In this document: in pieces, positions 28,516-49,179 of the stretch
How the letters are laid out: each line of letters opens with the position of its first letter
How positions within the stretch are numbered: the first letter of the stretch is position 1
Origin: a virus
DNA: 64,000 nucleotides
Strand: one strand, 5' to 3'
Virus record (IMG/VR): IMGVR_UViG_3300037258_000352
Coordinates: 40,287-104,286 of that record
Position numbers and translations under genes: made by a program
The notes under the pieces: generated by a model
What the model was told of the DNA's origin: nothing
Databases searched by the model: none
The model's input: only the letters and a program-made list of their open reading frames with translations

Positions 28516-29895
28516 TCATCGGGGGAACTCGTCCCAGGTTCGGCCGTCGAGGTCCCGGCCGCCGGCTTTAGGGGTCCGCCCGCCCCATTGTTTGAACAGG
28601 AACGGGACCCGCGCTGTCGTGGCCTGGTCCCGTAGCGCCCGGACCCAGTCCGGGTTCATCGGGCGGGTCACGGCACCCGACTCGCCCCCGACGATGACCC
28701 AGTCGATCCGGTGGCCGTAGGTGCCGGCGTGGGAGGACTTGCACTTGCAGTCGTCGACGCGGTCCACGAACCGGTTAGCGATCGAGCACCAGCCCTTATC
28801 GAGTCGCGGCGCGAGGGTCATGAACCGGTCGAGGTCCACCGCGGTCAGCAGCGGCTCACACGACAGGAAATGCACCGCGGCGGGGGTGTCCAGCAACGCG
28901 GGGATCCGAAGCTCGGCGCGCTGCTGGTCTTCGACGCTGACCCCCAACCAGACGCAGTCAAGTACCCGACGCTCACCCGGAGACGTAGGTCGGCCATGGA
29001 TCGGCGTTGACCATTGCCGTCCAGTGAGCACGTTGCGTACCTGCGTGTCGCTAACCGGGTAGTCCTTCGCGATCGAATAAGCCGATTCGCCGGCCTCGCC
29101 GCGTGATCGAATCGTCCCGACGTCGCGTTGAGTCAGCTTGGACCACGACTGCCCCGACCCGTGTTCGATGCGGTCCCCCCAGTTTGCGACCTGCGTCCCC
29201 CACTGCAAGTTCGACCACCGGTTGTCGGCCGCGTCGCCATTGAGGTGCCGAGCCTGCTCATCTGCTCGGGGCGCCCGCGAGAACGCGTGAAGGACGGCCC
29301 GGTGCACGAGCACAGACTCACCTCTCCGCGGCGATCCCTCGCGGTGAAGACGGACCCGCATGTGCCCTTGTTCGCCTTCCTCCAGCCGCATCCCGGATCT
29401 CGTGTCGGCCCGCTTGCCGAGGATCTGGCCGCTGGTGGTGACGACGTATCCAGGGAAGCCGGGCACGGGCGCCTCCAGGTAAGGCTCCTCGATCTCCCCT
29501 GAGTACCAGCGGCGAACCCACGAACGCATCCGGCCGTGCCGTTTAGTTAGGATCTGATACCTGTGCTGCGGGGCGGCCCCCATTGACTGCCAGACACGGG
29601 CGATGAACTCGTCAGGAACGTCCTTATGAAACAAATCCGACATCGAATTGACGAATATCAGGCGGGGTTTTTTCCACCGCAACGGTATCGACAGGGCGTC
29701 GTCGTGGATCGTGAGCCCGAACCCGGGGCCGCTGGTCCGCGGGTCCCCATCGGTTTGGTATTTCGCCTGGCCCATCCCTTTGAGCCGGCCGGCCATGGTC
29801 AGGGCGTAGCAGTTGTCGCAACCGGGGGTCACGCGGTCGCATCCGGTGGTGGGGTTCCAGACCTTGTCGGCCCACTCGATCGCGGTGTCAGCCAC
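28516..29895 (-). CDS. DUF5131 (phage Gp37/Gp68, radical-SAM-like) protein with inserted HNH domain
   Basis: IEW...WNP..GC..V.PGC.NCYA, FVNSMSDLFH, LTKR, WLGVSVEDQ, SCEPLL, WVIVGGESG, FKQWGG. Confidence 0.9.
   Translation of the reverse strand: MADTAIEWADKVWNPTTGCDRVTPGCDNCYALTMAGRLKGMGQAKYQTDGDPRTSGPGFGLTIHDDALSIPLRWKKPRLIFVNSMSDLFHKDVPDEFIARVWQSMGAAPQHRYQILTKRHGRMRSWVRRWYSGEIEEPYLEAPVPGFPGYVVTTSGQILGKRADTRSGMRLEEGEQGHMRVRLHREGSPRRGESVLVHRAVLHAFSRAPRADEQARHLNGDAADNRWSNLQWGTQVANWGDRIEHGSGQSWSKLTQRDVGTIRSRGEAGESAYSIAKDYPVSDTQVRNVLTGRQWSTPIHGRPTSPGERRVLDCVWLGVSVEDQQRAELRIPALLDTPAAVHFLSCEPLLTAVDLDRFMTLAPRLDKGWCSIANRFVDRVDDCKCKSSHAGTYGHRIDWVIVGGESGAVTRPMNPDWVRALRDQATTARVPFLFKQWGGRTPKAGGRDLDGRTWDEFPR
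29008..29478 (-). mobile_element. In-frame NUMOD4-HNH-HTH endonuclease-like insertion
   Basis: PVPGFPGYVVTTSG, VHRAVLHAF, RHLNGDAADNRWSNLQWGT..AN, SKLT...IR; boundaries approximate. Confidence 0.8.
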
Positions 29896-30062: not shown

Positions 30063-31100
30063 TCACGCATGGTCATCGGTGCCCGTCCCCGTCATCTCCT
30101 GCAGCATTGTGGAGCTCTTCGCGAGCTTCCGGGCGTTGTCCTCGGCGGTCCGGCACATCTCGGCGGTGATCCGCGGCTTGCCGTCTCTGTAGGTGTTCGC
30201 GATCCGGTACAGAGCAGCGGATGCGTAGTCGAGAATGGGGAACAGGTCCCGGTACACCGCGCGGTCGGCGTCGTTTCCACCAGCGACCGAGAGGGCGATG
30301 TCGCTACCGGGGTACCAGTACCGATCCCGCGTCCGGTCGCGGTGCCACGTCGACGGGTCATCCCCGGTCACGTCGTGAACGTCGCGGTCGCAATACCAGT
30401 CGTACTGGTCGTGTTTCGTTCCACACTTCGGCGGGTCGGCGAGCTCGGTGTCGTCCTCGCACGGGGGCAGCGTGTGATACCGGCCTCGCTGGTCATCGGT
30501 GCGCTGAGCCAGCGGTGAGTCACCGTCTGTCCAGCGAATCCTGTAGGTAGAAGATGCGTGTTGCAGTGTGTGACGTTCCCCGCTCAACGGATGATGCAGC
30601 GTGTCGCAGTACACGTCCCATTCTGGGTGCCTCGCTCGGCACCACGACGATGGACGTGATTCCGGCCCGTTCCATTCGTGGCCGCAATGCGCGCAGCGCA
30701 GCCACCCACCGATCAAGCGATCGTGGTATCGGCCGTCTTGGCGGCTCCACCGACACTCGGGACACGGCACTTCCTGTGGTTCCGCTGATGCCTGTGGTTG
30801 ACCGAGATGGATGGGTCCGAGGGCGTCGTGGACGGTATGGGTGGCGTCGTCGCTGACCCACCATTCGAGCCCGAGCCCTGAGTTGCGGTGGTAGAGGTGA
30901 CCGGTGCCGTGGGGGAGTTGGGTGCACCGGACGGTGTCCCGGTCGGGGTGTGGTTCTCCGCATTGCAGCGCCTCTACCGCTTGGCGCGCTAAGACCTGTC
31001 GCGTCTCCTCACTCAGAAGGACACCTGCGTAGTTGGCTTCGTCTGTGCTGTCATCCCACGCGTTTAGCACGCGTTGCACCTGATCGTCGGTGCTATCCAT
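30063..31100 (-). CDS. Protein with repeated C-x3-H...C...H...H putative Zn-binding modules
   Basis: CGEPH..C..H..H, CRARH..C..H..H, CGTKH..C..H..H plus a CxxC pair. Confidence 0.7.
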   Translation of the reverse strand: MDSTDDQVQRVLNAWDDSTDEANYAGVLLSEETRQVLARQAVEALQCGEPHPDRDTVRCTQLPHGTGHLYHRNSGLGLEWWVSDDATHTVHDALGPIHLGQPQASAEPQEVPCPECRWSRQDGRYHDRLIGGWLRCAHCGHEWNGPESRPSSWCRARHPEWDVYCDTLHHPLSGERHTLQHASSTYRIRWTDGDSPLAQRTDDQRGRYHTLPPCEDDTELADPPKCGTKHDQYDWYCDRDVHDVTGDDPSTWHRDRTRDRYWYPGSDIALSVAGGNDADRAVYRDLFPILDYASAALYRIANTYRDGKPRITAEMCRTAEDNARKLAKSSTMLQEMTGTGTDDHA

Positions 31101-31106
31101 CACTTG

Positions 31107-31170
31107 CCTCCGTGTCGTTTGGGTCCCGCAACCCACCCATAAACCTACACCTACAGGTACTAGTGGGCAA
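31107..31170 (-). promoter_or_regulatory. Housekeeping promoter + hairpin + extended SD cassette
   Basis: TTGCCC-N17-TAGGTT; TGGGT-TGCGGG-ACCCA; GACACGGAGG. Confidence 0.75.
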
Positions 31171-31173
31171 CCG

Positions 31174-31440
31174 TCACCGGTGTCGCCACCGGATGATGTT
31201 CCGCATCCACTGCCGAAACCGGCGACGCCTACCCCGACCACCCGACCGGATCGCAGCCAGCGCCGTGTTGACGTCAACGAACTCCAGTATCGGTTCACGG
31301 TCCGCTGCTTCACGCCACCGCGCGAGGACCTCCACGACCTCCTCCGTGCCGGGATGACCACCCCGCGCGATCTCGTCGAGGAGCCGGTCGTCGGCGTGAA
31401 CCGCAGTGAGGTCCACCGGTGGCTCGTGCTCGTCATCCAT
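31174..31440 (-). CDS. Stand-alone anti-sigma-D (RsdA) sigma-binding-domain-like protein
   Basis: PVDLTAVHADDRLLD...LARWR...D.EPI.E.VD..TA.A.I resembles the RsdA N-terminus; no TM helix. Confidence 0.75.
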   Translation of the reverse strand: MDDEHEPPVDLTAVHADDRLLDEIARGGHPGTEEVVEVLARWREAADREPILEFVDVNTALAAIRSGGRGRRRRFRQWMRNIIRWRHR

Positions 31441-31651
31441 CGCTGCCCCGCTTGGACTGGACCACCGTGAGCTGAAACTCCGCGCCGTCGTCGCAGCGGA
31501 TCACCAGGCCCGTGTTCGTCGTCATCATCAACTCGTGCTCGAAGGTGTTGACCTCTTTCAACTGGTCCAGGAACTCCTCATCGTCGTCGGTGACCCCGGT
31601 CCCGTTGGTGAGGAGCCCGATTAGGGTCCGCACCACCCCTTGCTCATTCAT
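31433..31651 (-). CDS. Phage hypothetical protein
   Basis: V.TFE...MTTN.GLVIR..DG.EFQLTVVQS. Confidence 0.8.
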   Translation of the reverse strand: MNEQGVVRTLIGLLTNGTGVTDDDEEFLDQLKEVNTFEHELMMTTNTGLVIRCDDGAEFQLTVVQSKRGSDG

Positions 31652-31656
31652 GTCGT

Positions 31657-31727
31657 CCTCCGTGTCGTCGAGGGCCCACCGCTGGGGCCGTACACCCATG
31701 TATCGAGATCCTGGTCCTGAGCGTTAC
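31657..31727 (-). promoter_or_regulatory. ECF promoter + hairpin + extended SD cassette, heads the operon with the RsdA-like gene
   Basis: GTAAC(31727-31723)-N17-CGAT(31705-31702); GGCCC-CAGCGGT-GGGCC; GACACGGAGG. Confidence 0.8.
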
Positions 31728-41468: not shown

Positions 41469-42227
41469 TCACCCGACGCCACCGAACGTGAGGACACCCT
41501 GCGACAGTCGGGCTGTCACCGCCCGTTCACACTGCGCTTCCCGCTTCTCGAACCCGATCGCACGCCGGCCCGTCGCTCGAGCTGCGACCAGCGTGGAGCA
41601 GCTACCAGCGAAGCAATCAAGGATCAGACCACCCAGTGGACAGCCGTATTCAATCAGAGGCTCAAGGATCCCCCGTGGCTTCTCAGTCTCGTTAATAGCG
41701 GTGCCGTGCATGGATCGTGAGTAGATGACCGAGCCCATCATGCGAGGACCACCGTTGTGACTCACATAGGAACCAGAGTCGATGTGCCCGGTGTGGGCCG
41801 GTTGTGCCTTGCGACGGACCTGCTTCTTGACTGCATCCTGCGTCGTTGGGGCGAGATGGTGAACGTCCGACCACGGACCTCGGTACCAGTGCGTTGCGTG
41901 CTCATGCATTCGCCGGAATCGGTCAGCGTGGAACGTTGACCCGTTGTGCTTCTCCCACACCACGTCCTGCGAGAACTTCCAGCCCGTGAACTCATCCCGC
42001 CTATCGAGGAACATCCGCATCGACCCGAAACACCACATCGAGTTCCCCGGGATCAGCGACGGCCACCCAGCGGGCCACCGGTCCCAATCCAGACTCGTCT
42101 CCCCGTACGGGGGATCACACACGGTGAGGTCCGGGACGATCCCCAACTCGGGGAGGATGTCCCGGAAGTCCCCGCAGTACAACGTGACCTCGTCGTCGGC
42201 GTAGTAGGGCTCCGGGCGGGTCACCAT
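41469..42227 (-). CDS. DNA N6-adenine/N4-cytosine methyltransferase (beta-type)
   Basis: DPPY, TEKP, LDCFAGSCST. Confidence 0.9.
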   Translation of the reverse strand: MVTRPEPYYADDEVTLYCGDFRDILPELGIVPDLTVCDPPYGETSLDWDRWPAGWPSLIPGNSMWCFGSMRMFLDRRDEFTGWKFSQDVVWEKHNGSTFHADRFRRMHEHATHWYRGPWSDVHHLAPTTQDAVKKQVRRKAQPAHTGHIDSGSYVSHNGGPRMMGSVIYSRSMHGTAINETEKPRGILEPLIEYGCPLGGLILDCFAGSCSTLVAARATGRRAIGFEKREAQCERAVTARLSQGVLTFGGVG

Positions 42228-44614
42228 GGTTGCCCGATCCCTATCCGGGCGTACTTCCCCACGAACGACAGCCGCACGTCCCCCGTCGGCCCGTTCCTAT
42301 GTTTGTCGACGATCACCGTGATGTCCTGCGGTTCGTCATCACGACGCCACAGCAACAGGATCTTCGACGCGTTGTGACCCACCGCGCGGGACTCCCGCAG
42401 GTCCTCCTTCGTTGGCCGGCCACCGATCCGTTTCGTCGGCTCCGAGTTGAGCTGATGCAACACCACGATCGGGCACCCGAGCTGCTTCGCGAGCTCCTTA
42501 AGCTCCCACGACAACCGCGACAACTGCTCCTGCCGGGACACCTTCGGATCCGCCGGCGACATCAACGACAACTGATCCACCACCACCAACCCCGGGTGCC
42601 CCAACTGCTGACACCGCGCCCGGATCTGCGCCACAGACAACCCGGGGGTGTCATCCACCCACAAGGGCCACTCCTGAATCCGCTCCGCAGCTTTCTTCGC
42701 CCGGTACTGATCTTCCGGTCCGAGCTGGTGTTCCATCAGATCCGACAGGGGGACGGTGCCAACGTCCGCGACCCACCGGGCCATGACCTCATCCGTCGTC
42801 ATTTCCAGGGTGAACATCACCGTCCGGACCCCGTCTTGGGCCGCGGCCCGCGCGATCGACCCCCCGAACAGGGAGTTGTGCGTAGGGATCATCGTCGGCC
42901 CTGCGAGGTAGAGGTGATCACTGTTGTCGACCTCGATACACCGCACGGGGACGCTTGCCACTGGCCGGACCGCGCGAATCATCCTGCGGGATGACCGCTG
43001 TGGGGCTCTCTGCCGCTCTACTTTCCTGGTTAGTTTGAAGACTTTGTCTCCGGGCGTAAAATTGATCATGTAGCAGGTTGAGGACTTCTCCGTCCTGCCT
43101 TTGACCCGTTTGGTTCGCATGGTGGCTCGGTACCCAAGACTCAGGATCAGTTCTAGAGTTCCCTCGGCCAGCACCTTGCTGGTGACAGCGAACTGGACCT
43201 TTCCTAGTTTGCAGACATACCCGTCGGTGTCTAGTAGCCCGGCTAGTAGCTCCCGGCGTTGTCCTACAGACGCCCGCAGGTAGGCGACCGGAATGTGTTT
43301 GTTCATCACTAAACCGGCGCGCCTTAGATCTGTGATCAGTCCATAGACTGTCCTATGGGGACACGTCCTCACTGCTTTCCCGATGGGTGGCCCTACTTCA
43401 TAACCGCAGAACGAGATGTTGTCGAACACTTCTGGATCAGCGCCGCACATCGTCCCATGCAAGGAATCACCGTCTCCGAGCCAGCAACCCAACACATAAG
43501 GATCTATCGGGAGATCTTCCGACTCGGGTAACTCCAACGGAGCTGCCAGCTTGACCGAGTGGTTGACGTATGTCCCGAATCGGAGCGTCGCCATGATCTG
43601 CTCCGTCGTCACCACTGAGGGATGGATCTGCTTCCACCGCTGGTCGATGGAATAAGGGGAGGTCCTGGCCAGGGTGTTATCAACGTGGGTGCATCGTGAA
43701 GATCGTGTCTCCGTCAGCCACTGGTGATCTGCGTCCGCTACGAGCACTGATCCGTCAGAGAACTCCACCTCATAGCAGGGACGACCCGTCATCACCGGGG
43801 TCGCGTTCGTGACCGTGGTCGGTTTGCCGTCCGCTCCGAACACTTGGTCGCCTACCTGAACCGTGCCCATGGTCGTCCAACCTGTCGGCGTGGCCAGGGG
43901 CGTATCCAGAGCGAGAGCCTTCCCGACGCTGGTGTTGGCTGCGACGACGATCAGCTCACCGATCCGCAACCCCCCGGAGAGTTGCTCATCGAGCGCTGGC
44001 CACGACGTTTTCACGACCCCCACCGGAGGCCGGTCCAACGACTCAATGAACGACCACACCGCCGGCTCCGCATGCACCAGCGTCTGCGACTGGTCCCGGG
44101 ACGTGGTGGCGTCGGTGAACTCCCGGCGCGCGAAGTCCAACACCTCATCCAGCGACGCGCCTTTCGACCCGTGCTCCGCGAGTTGAGTGATCCGCAAACC
44201 GGCCTCCCGGACCCGCCGCAGCACAGCTTTCGCGGCGACGATCTCCGCGTAGTAGGTGACGTTCGCGGCGGTGGGAGTGGCTTGCATCAGGGTGTGCAGG
44301 TACGGGCCGCCCCCCACCCGCAGGAGCTCACCACGCCGGTCCAACTCCTCCGACACGGTCACAGGGTCCGCGGGTTCCCCGCCCGCCCACAACGCCGTCA
44401 CAGCAGCCCAGATTTGGCTGTGACCGGGCCGGTAGAAGTCTTCCGGGGTCAACACCCCGGCGACGTCGTCCAACGCCCTAAACGACACCAGAACCGACCC
44501 GAGGACCGCTTGCTCCGCGTGGAGGTCCTGCGGTGGCTGGTTGTCCAGCTCGGGTTCGCCCTCCTCGCTCGGGGCGTCGTCCCATCCGGAGGTGTCAGCG
44601 GACACCGGGAACAC
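42221..44614 (-). CDS. dnaB: Replicative DNA helicase DnaB with intein
   Basis: PPQDLHAEQAVLG, AANTSVGK|S, FTLEM, VVDQL, QLN, DLRES, KHRNGP. Confidence 0.95.
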   Translation of the reverse strand: MFPVSADTSGWDDAPSEEGEPELDNQPPQDLHAEQAVLGSVLVSFRALDDVAGVLTPEDFYRPGHSQIWAAVTALWAGGEPADPVTVSEELDRRGELLRVGGGPYLHTLMQATPTAANVTYYAEIVAAKAVLRRVREAGLRITQLAEHGSKGASLDEVLDFARREFTDATTSRDQSQTLVHAEPAVWSFIESLDRPPVGVVKTSWPALDEQLSGGLRIGELIVVAANTSVGKALALDTPLATPTGWTTMGTVQVGDQVFGADGKPTTVTNATPVMTGRPCYEVEFSDGSVLVADADHQWLTETRSSRCTHVDNTLARTSPYSIDQRWKQIHPSVVTTEQIMATLRFGTYVNHSVKLAAPLELPESEDLPIDPYVLGCWLGDGDSLHGTMCGADPEVFDNISFCGYEVGPPIGKAVRTCPHRTVYGLITDLRRAGLVMNKHIPVAYLRASVGQRRELLAGLLDTDGYVCKLGKVQFAVTSKVLAEGTLELILSLGYRATMRTKRVKGRTEKSSTCYMINFTPGDKVFKLTRKVERQRAPQRSSRRMIRAVRPVASVPVRCIEVDNSDHLYLAGPTMIPTHNSLFGGSIARAAAQDGVRTVMFTLEMTTDEVMARWVADVGTVPLSDLMEHQLGPEDQYRAKKAAERIQEWPLWVDDTPGLSVAQIRARCQQLGHPGLVVVDQLSLMSPADPKVSRQEQLSRLSWELKELAKQLGCPIVVLHQLNSEPTKRIGGRPTKEDLRESRAVGHNASKILLLWRRDDEPQDITVIVDKHRNGPTGDVRLSFVGKYARIGIGQPW
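42875..43918 (-). mobile_element. Class 3 intein (348 aa) with LAGLIDADG homing endonuclease in the DnaB P-loop
   Basis: Starts ALALDTP, HQW (block B), VRC (block F), PTHN|S; LGCWLGDG and LAGLLDTDG motifs. Confidence 0.92.
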
Positions 44615-47017: not shown

Positions 47018-47668
47018 TCACGCCACCACCCCCACGTCCTCGTGGAGCCATGACGCAGCGTCGTCGGGGAGTAGCTGAGCGAGACGCCTGATCGCCCTGT
47101 GCTGCAGCGCTTTCACGGCACCGTCGTTGCGGTTCAATGCCGCTGCGGTCTCCGTGACGGACAGGCCAGCGTAGAACCGTAGGCCGATGCAATCCCGCTG
47201 GTCTCTGGGTAGTTTCCGGAGACACGTCGTGAGGTGCTGGGCGTAGAACTTGGTCATGATCCGGCTGATGGCTTCGCCGGCGGTGTTTTCTTCCGCGTAC
47301 CGTTCGGGGACTTTGTCGACGGTCCGGTCCCAGCGGTGTCTCGCTGATCGGACGTGGTCGAGGAGGAGGTTCCGGGCGATGGTGACGACCCACGCACCGA
47401 ACTCTTTCCCGTTGCCACGGTCAGCGACGGATTGGATCCTCCGCAGTGCGCGGCACCACACTTCACCGGCCATTTGCTCGACGGTGGAGCGGTCGCGGTC
47501 GTCGAGCCGGTAGAGGAGGTACCGGTAGATCATCAGGTGGTGTCGTTCGTACAGGACGCTGAAAGCGTCGCGGCCTGTGTCGCCGCCCTGCTGGGCGAGG
47601 GTGACGAGTTCCCAGTCCCCGAGTGGGGCGTTGTCCAGTACGTTTACTGTCGATGGCTGAGCGGTCAT
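47018..47668 (-). CDS. ECF sigma factor, BldN-like
   Basis: RALRRI...FGAWVVTIARNL..DH..S.R.R; LRFYAGLSVTETA...NDGAVKALQHRAIRRLAQLLPDD closely matches BldN as recalled. Confidence 0.9.
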   Translation of the reverse strand: MTAQPSTVNVLDNAPLGDWELVTLAQQGGDTGRDAFSVLYERHHLMIYRYLLYRLDDRDRSTVEQMAGEVWCRALRRIQSVADRGNGKEFGAWVVTIARNLLLDHVRSARHRWDRTVDKVPERYAEENTAGEAISRIMTKFYAQHLTTCLRKLPRDQRDCIGLRFYAGLSVTETAAALNRNDGAVKALQHRAIRRLAQLLPDDAASWLHEDVGVVA

Positions 47669-49003: not shown

Positions 49004-49029
49004 ATCGCCCGCGAAGTTTTGGACGTTAC
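49004..49029 (-). promoter_or_regulatory. ECF promoter heading the leftward sigma/replication block
   Basis: GTAAC(49029-49025)-N17-CGATA in the divergent intergenic region. Confidence 0.7.
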
Positions 49030-49112: not shown

Positions 49113-49179
49113 TTGACGGGTGACCCGTTGGGTGTACGGTGGTGGGGTTGGTAGCGGACCAACACCCCTGACACGGAGG
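49113..49179 (+). promoter_or_regulatory. Housekeeping promoter + hairpin + extended SD cassette
   Basis: TTGACG-N16-TACGGT; GTTGGT-AGCGG-ACCAAC; GACACGGAGG 49170. Confidence 0.75.

What the first reader, a model, noticed from the sequence alone, without database searches (positions are those of the whole stretch)
31174..31727. Soluble, truncated RsdA (anti-sigma-D) mimic under a SigD-type promoter
Seen: the 88-aa protein contains PVDLTAVHADDRLLD...LARWR..ADREPILEFVDVNTALAAI and stops after an Arg-rich stretch. Known: cellular RsdA continues from such a stretch into a TM helix and an extracytoplasmic sensor, and is inactivated by regulated intramembrane proteolysis. No sigD gene is adjacent. 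Inference: a captured cytoplasmic domain would be a signal-blind inhibitor of host SigD. As the second gene after the promoter at 31702-31727, it would form a negative feedback loop.
Basis: partly seen in the sequence, partly recalled or inferred. Interest (0 to 1): 0.85.

Follow-up and report, generated by a model that had tools for sequence, protein, structure and literature searches.

The report
Phage anti-sigma copied from host RsdA
A 104-kb actinobacterial phage carries a small, membrane-span-less copy of the sigma-binding domain of the host anti-sigma factor RsdA, placed behind a SigD-type promoter, so the phage can probably switch off an envelope-stress sigma factor without listening to the cell's stress signal.

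Summary
ORF 31174-31440(-) encodes an 88-aa protein homologous to the cytoplasmic anti-sigma domain of RsdA. Pfam alone is sub-threshold (21 vs 26.7 bits). A profile of short relatives hits M. tuberculosis RsdA (3VEP) at 2e-9 and Pseudonocardiales RsdA at 1e-22. All five known sigma-contact residues, including the key Trp, are kept.

It has no TM helix, but it is not a bare truncation. It ends in a conserved cationic amphipathic helix and belongs to a large family of short forms, some viral.

The promoter at 31702-31727 is real: one of 18 GTAAC-N17-CGAT sites in the genome, the same core as host sigD-rsdA promoters.

The phage has its own ECF sigma (47018-47668), which is BldN-like, not SigD-like. 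It is also the likelier reader of these promoters, so the proposed negative feedback loop is unproven.

The target is unresolved:
- Host SigD is favoured, at about 50%, by family precedent and interface conservation.
- The phage sigma is the main rival, at about 28%.

This is a new variant of a known kind. First-stage notes of this scan had already flagged the promoter regulon.

The parts
31702..31727 (-). ECF (SigD-type) promoter: GTAACG (-35), 16-nt spacer, CGAT (-10), continuing ACA
   Evidence: It is one of 18 GTAAC-N16/17-CGAT sites in the 104-kb genome. The window holds 13 against 1.09 expected. This is the only strongly enriched two-box motif in the genome. It has the same core as the C. 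glutamicum/M. tuberculosis SigD consensus (PMC6338062; PMC12019637) and as the sites in front of Pseudonocardiales sigD-rsdA operons.
31433..31651 (-). First gene of the operon: small acidic protein of unknown function. It is 72 aa from ATG 31651; the longest ORF reaches 31699.
   Evidence: ORF. GACACGGAGG Shine-Dalgarno box at 31657-31666 read. No significant Pfam or PHROG match. Its stop overlaps the start of the next gene, which suggests translational coupling.
31174..31440 (-). 88-aa RsdA-family anti-sigma protein without a TM helix (P0001)
31240..31419 (-). Anti-sigma domain, residues 8-67: helix 12-25 (DDRLLD motif), helix 32-48 (with Trp42), helix 57-67
   Evidence: The alignment to RsdA 16-80 of 3VEP places the RsdA contact residues L24, L43, L46, L47 and W50 (PMC3597663) on L21, V35, V38, L39 and W42. 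Helices come from an AF2 model with mean pLDDT 66. These positions are as conserved in short forms as in long forms.
31177..31239 (-). C-terminal cationic amphipathic helix (residues 68-88, Arg/Trp/Phe/Ile pattern) standing where cellular RsdA has its TM helix
   Evidence: Net charge +11 and hydrophobic moment 0.86. Across 36 short forms the mean moment is 0.73 against 0.55 for shuffles, Wilcoxon p=1e-7. The tail is almost invariant in the four close homologues. AF2 predicts a helix at 71-87.
30063..31100 (-). Third gene of the operon, 345 aa, unknown function, with Cys-x2-Cys pairs. The 457-aa 'longest ORF' 30063..31436 overlaps the anti-sigma gene out of frame and is probably an over-extension.
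   Evidence: GACACGGAGG box at 31107-31116 in front of ATG 31100. Only weak zinc-ribbon hints.
47018..47668 (-). The phage's only ECF sigma factor (216 aa), BldN-like
   Evidence: Sigma70_r2 at 4.7e-12 and r4_2 at 3.1e-12. Best PDB match is BldN 6dxo_A at 2.6e-32; SigD region 4 scores only 1e-7. TIGR02952 (BldN family) at 1.4e-37. The tree puts it with cellular BldN-like sigmas and away from RsdA-partnered SigD. No anti-sigma-like gene lies next to it.
49004..49029 (-). Same-type promoter heading the leftward operon that contains the phage sigma gene

Best explanation
The gene encodes a phage-borne anti-sigma factor derived from the cytoplasmic domain of actinobacterial RsdA.

Mechanism. Its helices 1 and 3, with Leu21, Val35, Val38, Leu39 and Trp42, would clamp region 4 of an ECF sigma. 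The short third helix would reach region 2, as in the RsdA-SigD complex. Together they would keep that sigma off RNA polymerase.

Why it would be signal-blind. The protein has no membrane span, no outside domain and no C-terminal degron. The MarP/Rip1/ClpXP cascade that frees SigD from cellular RsdA cannot act on it, so inhibition would not respond to envelope stress.

The tail. In place of the TM helix it has a conserved cationic amphipathic helix. I infer that this helix lays the protein flat on the inner face of the membrane. A second contact with the sigma or with nucleic acid is not excluded.

The target. The most likely target is the host's SigD, the envelope-stress sigma of a Pseudonocardiales-type host.

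Expression. The gene is expressed as the second, translationally coupled gene behind one of the phage's 18 GTAAC-N17-CGAT promoters. If SigD itself fires that promoter, the arrangement is a negative feedback loop. If the phage's own BldN-like sigma fires it, the protein is instead a middle-phase shut-off of the host stress response.

Shown: homology, conserved interface residues, absence of a TM helix, the amphipathic tail, the promoter family, and operon position.

Inferred: binding, the identity of the target, the role of the tail, and the timing.
For: Homology to RsdA:
-.
- The short-form profile hits 3vep_X at 2.2e-9 and five sigD-adjacent Pseudonocardiales RsdA proteins at 1e-17 to 1e-22.
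- The single sequence scores 45.8 bits against one of them over residues 3-76.

Interface:
- The residues that contact SigD region 4 in M. tuberculosis (L24, L43, L46, L47, W50; W50A lowers affinity tenfold; PMC3597663) are L21, V35, V38, L39 and W42 here.
- They are as conserved in 53 short forms as in 70 long forms; for example Trp is 100% against 97%.

Partner precedent:
- In 5 of 5 Pseudonocardiales genomes the RsdA-family gene directly follows an ECF sigma gene.
- That sigma forms a clade apart from the phage sigma.
- None of 80 cellular loci of the phage-sigma-like (BldN-like) sigma has an RsdA-type gene within 4 kb. In about 11 of 15 inspected, a different membrane protein follows.
- A 50-kb viral contig (G149, 79% complete) has a short form of the same build but no detectable ECF sigma.

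Escape from proteolysis:
- There is no TM helix.
- The C-terminus is basic, not VAA. RsdA(1-94) lacking VAA resisted ClpXP in vitro (PMC3597663).
- The cascade is described in PMC11175481.

Promoter.
Against: - No binding test was possible.
- The phage has its own ECF sigma and only one enriched ECF-type promoter class, so the phage sigma probably reads these promoters. Standard ECF logic then makes the co-regulated anti-sigma its partner.
- Among 23 sigma-bearing viral records, RsdA-like genes were found only in G009, G023, G024 and G025 (G025 is a fragment whose sigma is identical to G024's). G009, G023 and G024 also carry several GTAAC-N17-CGAT sites.
- If both sigmas read the same promoters, the benefit of silencing only host SigD is unclear.
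- Phage promoters continue CGAT-A in 15 of 18 cases, while the five host sigD/rsdA promoters continue CGAT-G. This hints that they are tuned to another sigma.
- Pfam's own threshold is not reached by this sequence alone.
- The monomer model is of low confidence.
Confidence: 0.5

Rival explanations
1. The protein is the cognate anti-sigma of the phage's own ECF sigma (47018-47668). The phage sigma reads the 18 GTAAC-N17-CGAT promoters, including those of its own operon and of this gene. The anti-sigma accumulates and titrates it, giving a self-limiting pulse of middle-gene transcription.
For: - The genome holds one sigma and one enriched ECF-type promoter class.
- Both the sigma operon and this gene lie behind that promoter type.
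- No other anti-sigma-like gene lies near the sigma.
- Three further viral lineages combine a BldN-like sigma, several copies of the same motif and an RsdA-like gene: G009/G023 with 7-8 sites and G024 with 2 sites. 18 sigma-bearing records have 0-1 site; only one of them (G025, a 14%-complete fragment whose sigma is identical to G024's) has an RsdA-like gene.
- Five of the six motif-bearing lineages (all but G024) fall in one clade with cellular BldN-like sigmas. Five of six (all but G012) share the recognition-helix motif ALQHRA, which none of the 17 motif-less sigmas has.
- Phage promoters differ from host sigD promoters just after CGAT.
Against: - Cellular members of this sigma clade never pair with RsdA-type proteins (0 of 80).
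- The region-4.1 surface that RsdA would bind is very different among the RsdA-carrying phages, and none resembles SigD. Yet the anti-sigma interface residues keep the cellular consensus.
- G149 has a short form without a sigma.
- The co-occurrence may reflect shared ancestry or shared hosts of a few phage lineages. Two of the five motif-bearing records are fragments.
Confidence: 0.28
2. The RsdA-like fold is kept, but the protein does something other than sequester a sigma. For example, the Arg/Trp tail might bind nucleic acid or perturb the membrane, with the N-terminal domain serving only as a scaffold or as a decoy for the proteases that cut RsdA.
For: - The tail is the best-conserved part among close homologues, more than a generic membrane anchor would need.
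- The monomer model is weak.
- No fold match was found.
Against: The sigma-contact residues, including the invariant Trp, are under the same constraint as in cellular RsdA. That is hard to explain without sigma binding.
Confidence: 0.12
3. It is a decaying fragment of a captured rsdA gene with no function.
For: It is short, and Pfam is below threshold.
Against: - Four homologues on other contigs are 71-74% identical, with the same start, the same stop and an invariant tail.
- There are 53 short TM-less clusters among the 155 family sequences classified (the five query-family proteins plus the best 150 representatives).
- The frame is intact and the start is coupled to the upstream gene.
Confidence: 0.03

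Closest known systems
RsdA (Rv3413c of M. tuberculosis; RsdA of C. glutamicum), anti-sigma factor of the ECF40 sigma SigD; Pfam PF16751; structure 3VEP
   Same: The N-terminal anti-sigma domain is homologous over about 65 residues. It has the same hallmark motifs (DDxLLD, WRxxxDxEP, DTALAAI), the same hydrophobic contact residues and an Arg-rich stretch after the domain. Like cellular rsdA, it is expressed from a GTAAC-N17-CGAT promoter.
   Different: - It has no TM helix and no extracytoplasmic domain. Cellular forms are about 280-500 aa, against 88 aa here.
- It has no C-terminal or TM-embedded VAA degron.
- It is not next to sigD.
- It is phage-encoded.
- It has an amphipathic cationic tail instead of a membrane span.
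RsdA(1-94) constructs lacking the VAA degron, and RseA(1-108)-VDD
   Same: These are soluble cytoplasmic anti-sigma domains that still bind their sigma and resist ClpXP (PMC3597663). This is the laboratory equivalent of what the phage protein appears to be.
   Different: They are engineered fragments. The phage protein is a natural, conserved gene with an added tail.
RsbN, anti-sigma of Streptomyces BldN (6DXO)
   Same: It is the anti-sigma of the sigma family to which the phage sigma is closest. Like RsdA, it has a three-helix cytoplasmic domain that binds regions 4 and 2.
   Different: There is no detectable sequence similarity: 6dxo chain B did not appear at E<=10. RsbN is membrane-anchored.
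Phage anti-sigma factors against the primary sigma (T4 AsiA, S. aureus phage G1 ORF67)
   Same: They are small phage proteins that bind region 4 of a host sigma to redirect transcription.
   Different: They target the housekeeping sigma and are unrelated in sequence to host anti-sigmas. This one is a recognisable copy of a host ECF anti-sigma. The comparison with AsiA and ORF67 rests on my own knowledge and was not tested here.

Membership tests
RsdA family (Pfam PF16751 RsdA_SigD_bd) | Score above Pfam's gathering threshold | tested here: not met
   The score is 21.0 bits against 26.7, E=4e-4, over the full profile 1-46. Three of four close homologues carry a precomputed PF16751 hit. 58 of 66 relatives match at E<=1e-3.
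RsdA family (Pfam PF16751 RsdA_SigD_bd) | Significant homology to experimentally characterised RsdA and to sigD-adjacent RsdA genes | tested here: met
   The short-form profile hits 3vep_X at 2.2e-9 and five sigD-adjacent Pseudonocardiales proteins at 1e-17 to 1e-22. Single-sequence phmmer gives 45.8 bits.
RsdA family (Pfam PF16751 RsdA_SigD_bd) | Conserved sigma-region-4 contact residues (L24, L43, L46, L47, W50 of Rv3413c) | tested here: met
   The equivalents are L21, V35, V38, L39 and W42 by the alignments. The residue list comes from PMC3597663.
RsdA family (Pfam PF16751 RsdA_SigD_bd) | Single TM helix followed by an extracytoplasmic domain | tested here: not met
   The highest 19-residue hydropathy is 0.75. 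Long forms reach 2.0-2.7 near residue 100-130. The protein ends at residue 88.
RsdA family (Pfam PF16751 RsdA_SigD_bd) | Gene directly downstream of, and co-transcribed with, sigD | tested here: not met
   The neighbours are unrelated small genes. The only sigma gene is 15.6 kb away and is not SigD-like. In cells the two genes were adjacent in 5 of 5 genomes.
RsdA family (Pfam PF16751 RsdA_SigD_bd) | Binds SigD and blocks its activity | not testable with these tools
RsdA family (Pfam PF16751 RsdA_SigD_bd) | Released by regulated proteolysis (MarP, Rip1, ClpXP via a VAA-type degron) | tested here: not met
   The protein has no membrane span and a C-terminus of RWRHR. The mechanism is taken from PMC11175481 and PMC3597663.
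Class I anti-sigma domain fold | Helices H1 and H3 positioned to bind region 4, and a further helix for region 2 | tested here: inconclusive
   The AF2 monomer shows helices at 12-25, 32-48, 57-67 and 71-87, but mean pLDDT is 66 and pTM 0.30. Foldseek against the PDB found nothing.
RsbN-type anti-sigma (BldN partner) | Sequence similarity to RsbN | tested here: not met
   No 6dxo RsbN chain appeared at E<=10 with either profile.

The most novel reading that the evidence does not exclude
Some large actinophages run a 'sigma swap'. They carry a BldN-derived ECF sigma that reads SigD-type promoters but cannot be held by host RsdA. They also carry a membrane-free RsdA copy that permanently locks away the host's own SigD. 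The phage then owns the envelope-stress promoter class while the cell is made deaf to envelope damage. The short RsdA forms with an amphipathic tail would be a widespread phage counter-measure against ECF stress signalling, a class of phage anti-sigma not yet described.
Probability: 0.2. Interest if true: 0.8.

Novelty: new variant of a known kind. Interest (0 to 1): 0.6.

Why it matters
Phage anti-sigma factors known so far act on the housekeeping sigma and have no cellular relatives. This would be a phage protein visibly derived from a host ECF anti-sigma and stripped of the parts that make it signal-responsive.

If it blocks SigD, it shows that phages of mycolata and Pseudonocardiales manipulate the conserved SigD envelope-stress pathway. 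That pathway also governs envelope composition and drug tolerance in mycobacteria and corynebacteria. The protein would also be a ready-made, proteolysis-proof SigD inhibitor for research.

If it instead controls the phage's own sigma, it is a compact phage sigma/anti-sigma timer built from mismatched host parts.

Either way, the family of short forms with an amphipathic tail in place of a TM helix is an undescribed architecture of a known anti-sigma family.

Tried and rejected
The 107-kb and 103-kb contigs carrying relatives P0004 and P0013 could not be fetched.

Searches that found nothing:
- The search for related loci with A1, P0013 or A5 in viral contigs.
- The search for related loci with A1 or P0013 in metagenome contigs.
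- tblastn of P0001 and P0013 against 50,697 cultured phage records gave no match.
- The word-index search for longer relatives gave nothing. The exhaustive search then found them.
- PHROGs and NCBIfam had no family for the protein.
- Foldseek of the low-confidence monomer model against the PDB gave no match.
- A degenerate DNA pattern for ADDALLD in viral contigs gave 114 loci, of which only one (L185/G149) encodes a true relative.

Ideas tested and dropped:
- The leader RNA 31640-31700 is no more stable than shuffles, z=0.58, so no structured leader is claimed here.
- A second promoter class for the phage sigma was sought. BldN-type GTAAC-N15-18-CGTT is not enriched in this or the other sigma-bearing phages, and a genome-wide two-box search found no other motif.
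- Convergence of the phage sigmas' region 4.1 toward SigD in RsdA-carrying phages was sought and not seen.
- Pseudogene or frameshift origin was rejected.

Full report
**What is there.** The window is bases 40287-104286 of a 104,286-bp viral record with direct terminal repeats, judged complete. Its ATG overlaps the stop of the preceding small gene by 8 nt. Its TGA is followed by a 73-nt spacer, then the GACACGGAGG box and the ATG of the next gene at 31100. The 457-aa 'longest ORF' 30063..31436 overlaps it out of frame and is best read as an over-extension of that next gene.

**Is it RsdA-like?** Yes.
- Pfam RsdA_SigD_bd matches end to end, but at 21 bits it is under the curated 26.7.
- Four metagenomic homologues are 71-74% identical, have the same length and an almost invariant C-terminus. 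Three carry a stored PF16751 hit.
- A profile of these five, run against 1.84 billion representatives, found 293 proteins at E<=1e-3. Of the 66 best, 58 match PF16751.
- A profile made only of short forms hits the crystallised M. tuberculosis RsdA (3vep_X) at 2.2e-9 over its residues 16-80. It hits the RsdA proteins of five Pseudonocardiales genomes at 1e-17 to 1e-22.
- The single sequence aligns to one of those over residues 3-76 at 45.8 bits.
- The RsdA residues reported to contact SigD region 4 are L24, L43, L46, L47 and W50, and W50A costs tenfold in affinity (PMC3597663). They correspond to L21, V35, V38, L39 and W42 here.
- When the 155 family sequences (the five query-family proteins plus the best 150 representatives) are aligned to the profile, these positions are as conserved in TM-less short forms as in long forms. 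Trp is 100% against 97%.

**What it lacks and what it has instead.**
- There is no TM helix, no outside domain and no VAA-type C-terminus.
- The protein is not simply cut after the Arg-rich stretch. The last ~20 residues alternate Arg with Phe, Trp, Met and Ile in a helical pattern.
- Among those 155 sequences there are 53 short TM-less proteins, 24 short proteins ending in a TM helix and 70 long forms.
- In 36 short forms the tail has net charge +4 to +12. Its helical hydrophobic moment averages 0.73 against 0.55 for shuffles, p=1e-7.
- AF2 predicts four helices, the last at 71-87, but with low confidence: pLDDT 66, pTM 0.30. Foldseek found nothing.
- I read the tail as an in-plane membrane anchor that replaces the TM helix. 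This is an inference.
- A tail-anchored form with almost no outside part would be an unprotected substrate for the site-2 protease, and an in-plane helix would not. That gives a rationale for the architecture.

**Where short forms live.**
- In 121 genomes of the order containing Pseudonocardia, 45 have a match. Nearly all are single copies in long open frames, and only two are short partial frames. One of the 45, G035, is an unpublished genome; the claim does not depend on it.
- No cultured phage record has a relative.
- The nearest ESM Atlas cluster (score 0.93) consists of ~100-aa proteins. Most of its few members with a taxon are viral. This is a lead only.
- In IMG/VR I found relatives in five records:
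  - G009 and G023 are ~120-kb phages. Theirs is a long form with a TM helix and a ~210-aa C-terminal domain, and the key Trp is replaced by Leu.
  - G024 and G025 carry a 96-aa tail-anchored form.
  - G149 is a 50-kb contig, 79% complete, with an 86-aa form and a basic amphipathic tail.

**The promoter.**
- GTAAC-N17-CGAT occurs 13 times in the window against 1.09 expected. It occurs 18 times in the genome counting one N16 variant, nearly always at gene boundaries and co-oriented with the downstream genes.
- It is the only strongly enriched two-box motif in the genome.
- The core equals the SigD consensus of C. glutamicum (GTAAC A/G ... GAT; PMC6338062) and of ECF40 sigmas generally (GTAAC-N17-18-CGAT; PMC12019637).
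- In the Pseudonocardiales loci the same motif sits directly in front of sigD in four genomes. In the fifth it sits in front of a second, tandem rsdA copy.
- So 'SigD-type promoter' is a fair description.
- Two details differ. Phage sites continue CGAT-A in 15 of 18 cases (mostly CGATACA), while the host sites continue CGAT-G in 5 of 5.

The phage has one ECF sigma, at 47018-47668(-).
- It is closest to Streptomyces BldN (6dxo_A at 2.6e-32; TIGR02952 at 1.4e-37). It is only weakly like SigD region 4, at 1e-7.
- Its best cellular relatives, at 45-51% identity, are in Pseudonocardia, Amycolatopsis, Actinokineospora and kin. That points to a Pseudonocardiales-type host.
- A quick maximum-likelihood tree separates the RsdA-partnered cellular SigD proteins (support 100) from a group holding all phage sigmas and the cellular BldN-like ones. 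The careful tree search did not finish.
- None of 80 cellular loci of the BldN-like sigma has an RsdA-type gene within 4 kb. In about 11 of 15 inspected, the downstream gene is a different membrane protein with an (E/D)RFA motif. I did not test its homology to RsbN.
- Next to the phage sigma there is no anti-sigma-like gene.

**Who is the target?** For host SigD:
- Every characterised or genome-context-supported RsdA pairs with SigD.
- The interface residues of the short forms keep the cellular consensus, although the phage sigmas of RsdA-carrying phages differ widely in region 4.1 and none looks like SigD.
- G149 has a short form and no detectable sigma.

For the phage sigma:
- One sigma and one promoter class suggest that the phage sigma reads these promoters.
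- Among 23 sigma-bearing viral records, several copies of the motif occur only in G009, G023, G024, G012 and G013. The three larger of these also have an RsdA-like gene; G012 and G013 are fragments, 65% and 17% complete. Of the 18 records with 0-1 site, only G025, a 14%-complete fragment whose sigma is identical to G024's, has one.
- Five of the six motif-bearing lineages, counting this phage, lie in one clade with cellular BldN-like sigmas (all but G024). Five of six share the recognition-helix motif ALQHRA (all but G012), and none of the 17 motif-less sigmas has it.
- These associations may reflect common descent or common hosts.

I put host SigD at about 50%, the phage sigma at about 28%, another function at about 12%, and a dead fragment at about 3%. 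The remainder covers dual binding or something not considered. That is open.

**Comparison with what is known.**
- The cellular pathway is established: RsdA holds SigD at the membrane and is removed by MarP, Rip1 and ClpXP on envelope damage (PMC11175481).
- RsdA(1-94) without its VAA end resists ClpXP in vitro (PMC3597663). The phage protein looks like a natural version of that construct, with an added tail.
- Full-text searches for RsdA with bacteriophage, and for phage-encoded ECF anti-sigmas, returned no paper describing such a protein. That library is incomplete, so this is not proof of novelty.
- First-stage notes of this scan had already listed the promoter family and the sigma on this genome. 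I re-derived both independently.

**Verdict.** This is a real gene and a true but atypical member of the RsdA superfamily. It meets the sequence and interface criteria and fails the TM, sensor, sigD-adjacency and degron criteria. It is probably a signal-blind anti-sigma, and its target is unresolved. It is a new variant of a known kind, of moderate to high interest.

Noticed in passing
window 792-49029 (18 sites genome-wide; list): Most GTAAC-N17-CGAT promoters continue as CGATACA-N5-TGTA(G/A)G, so a TACA...TGTA inverted repeat overlaps the -10 and start region. This could be an operator for a dimeric regulator or part of the start-site context. It is absent from the host sigD promoters seen.
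   Followed up: partly
window 47018-47668 (-): The phage ECF sigma and its metagenomic close relatives share three features: an N-terminal DNAPLGDWELV segment, a C-terminal extension (DDAASWL...GV) and, in the closest ones, a two-residue insertion in the loop before GAW. That loop takes part in -10 recognition in other ECF sigmas. Cellular BldN-like sigmas lack all three.
   Followed up: partly
L114 (G009:118415-121538) and L115 (G023:88937-92164): Two ~120-kb phages encode a full-length RsdA-like protein with an anti-sigma domain, a TM helix and a ~210-aa Cys-containing C-terminal domain. The key Trp is replaced by Leu. It looks like a phage-encoded, possibly signal-responsive anti-sigma, about 11 kb from the phage's sigma gene.
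   Followed up: partly
L116/L117 (G025, G024): These carry a tail-anchored 96-aa RsdA-like protein: an anti-sigma domain followed directly by a C-terminal TM helix. The phage also has an ECF sigma and two motif sites.
   Followed up: partly
L088/L089 (Pseudonocardia eucalypti genome G001): sigD is followed by two tandem RsdA-family genes (504 and 480 aa), with a GTAAC-N17-CGAT site between them.
   Followed up: no
window 42221-44614 (-): A DnaB-type replicative helicase is interrupted by a LAGLIDADG/Hom_end homing-endonuclease segment at residues ~449-525, which suggests an intein.
   Followed up: no
window 28516-29895 (-): A DUF5131 protein is matched in two stretches with an HNH endonuclease domain inserted between them, around residues 134-297.
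   Followed up: no
window 49113-49140 (+): A housekeeping-type promoter candidate, TTGACG-N16-TACGGT, heads the rightward operon that starts at ATG 49188. It diverges from the ECF-type promoter of the leftward sigma operon.
   Followed up: no
window 31433-31651 (-): A small acidic protein of 72 aa with no family is translationally coupled to the anti-sigma gene. In relative P0004 the anti-sigma ORF itself appears to follow the GACACGGAGG leader directly, so this upstream gene may be absent there.
   Followed up: no
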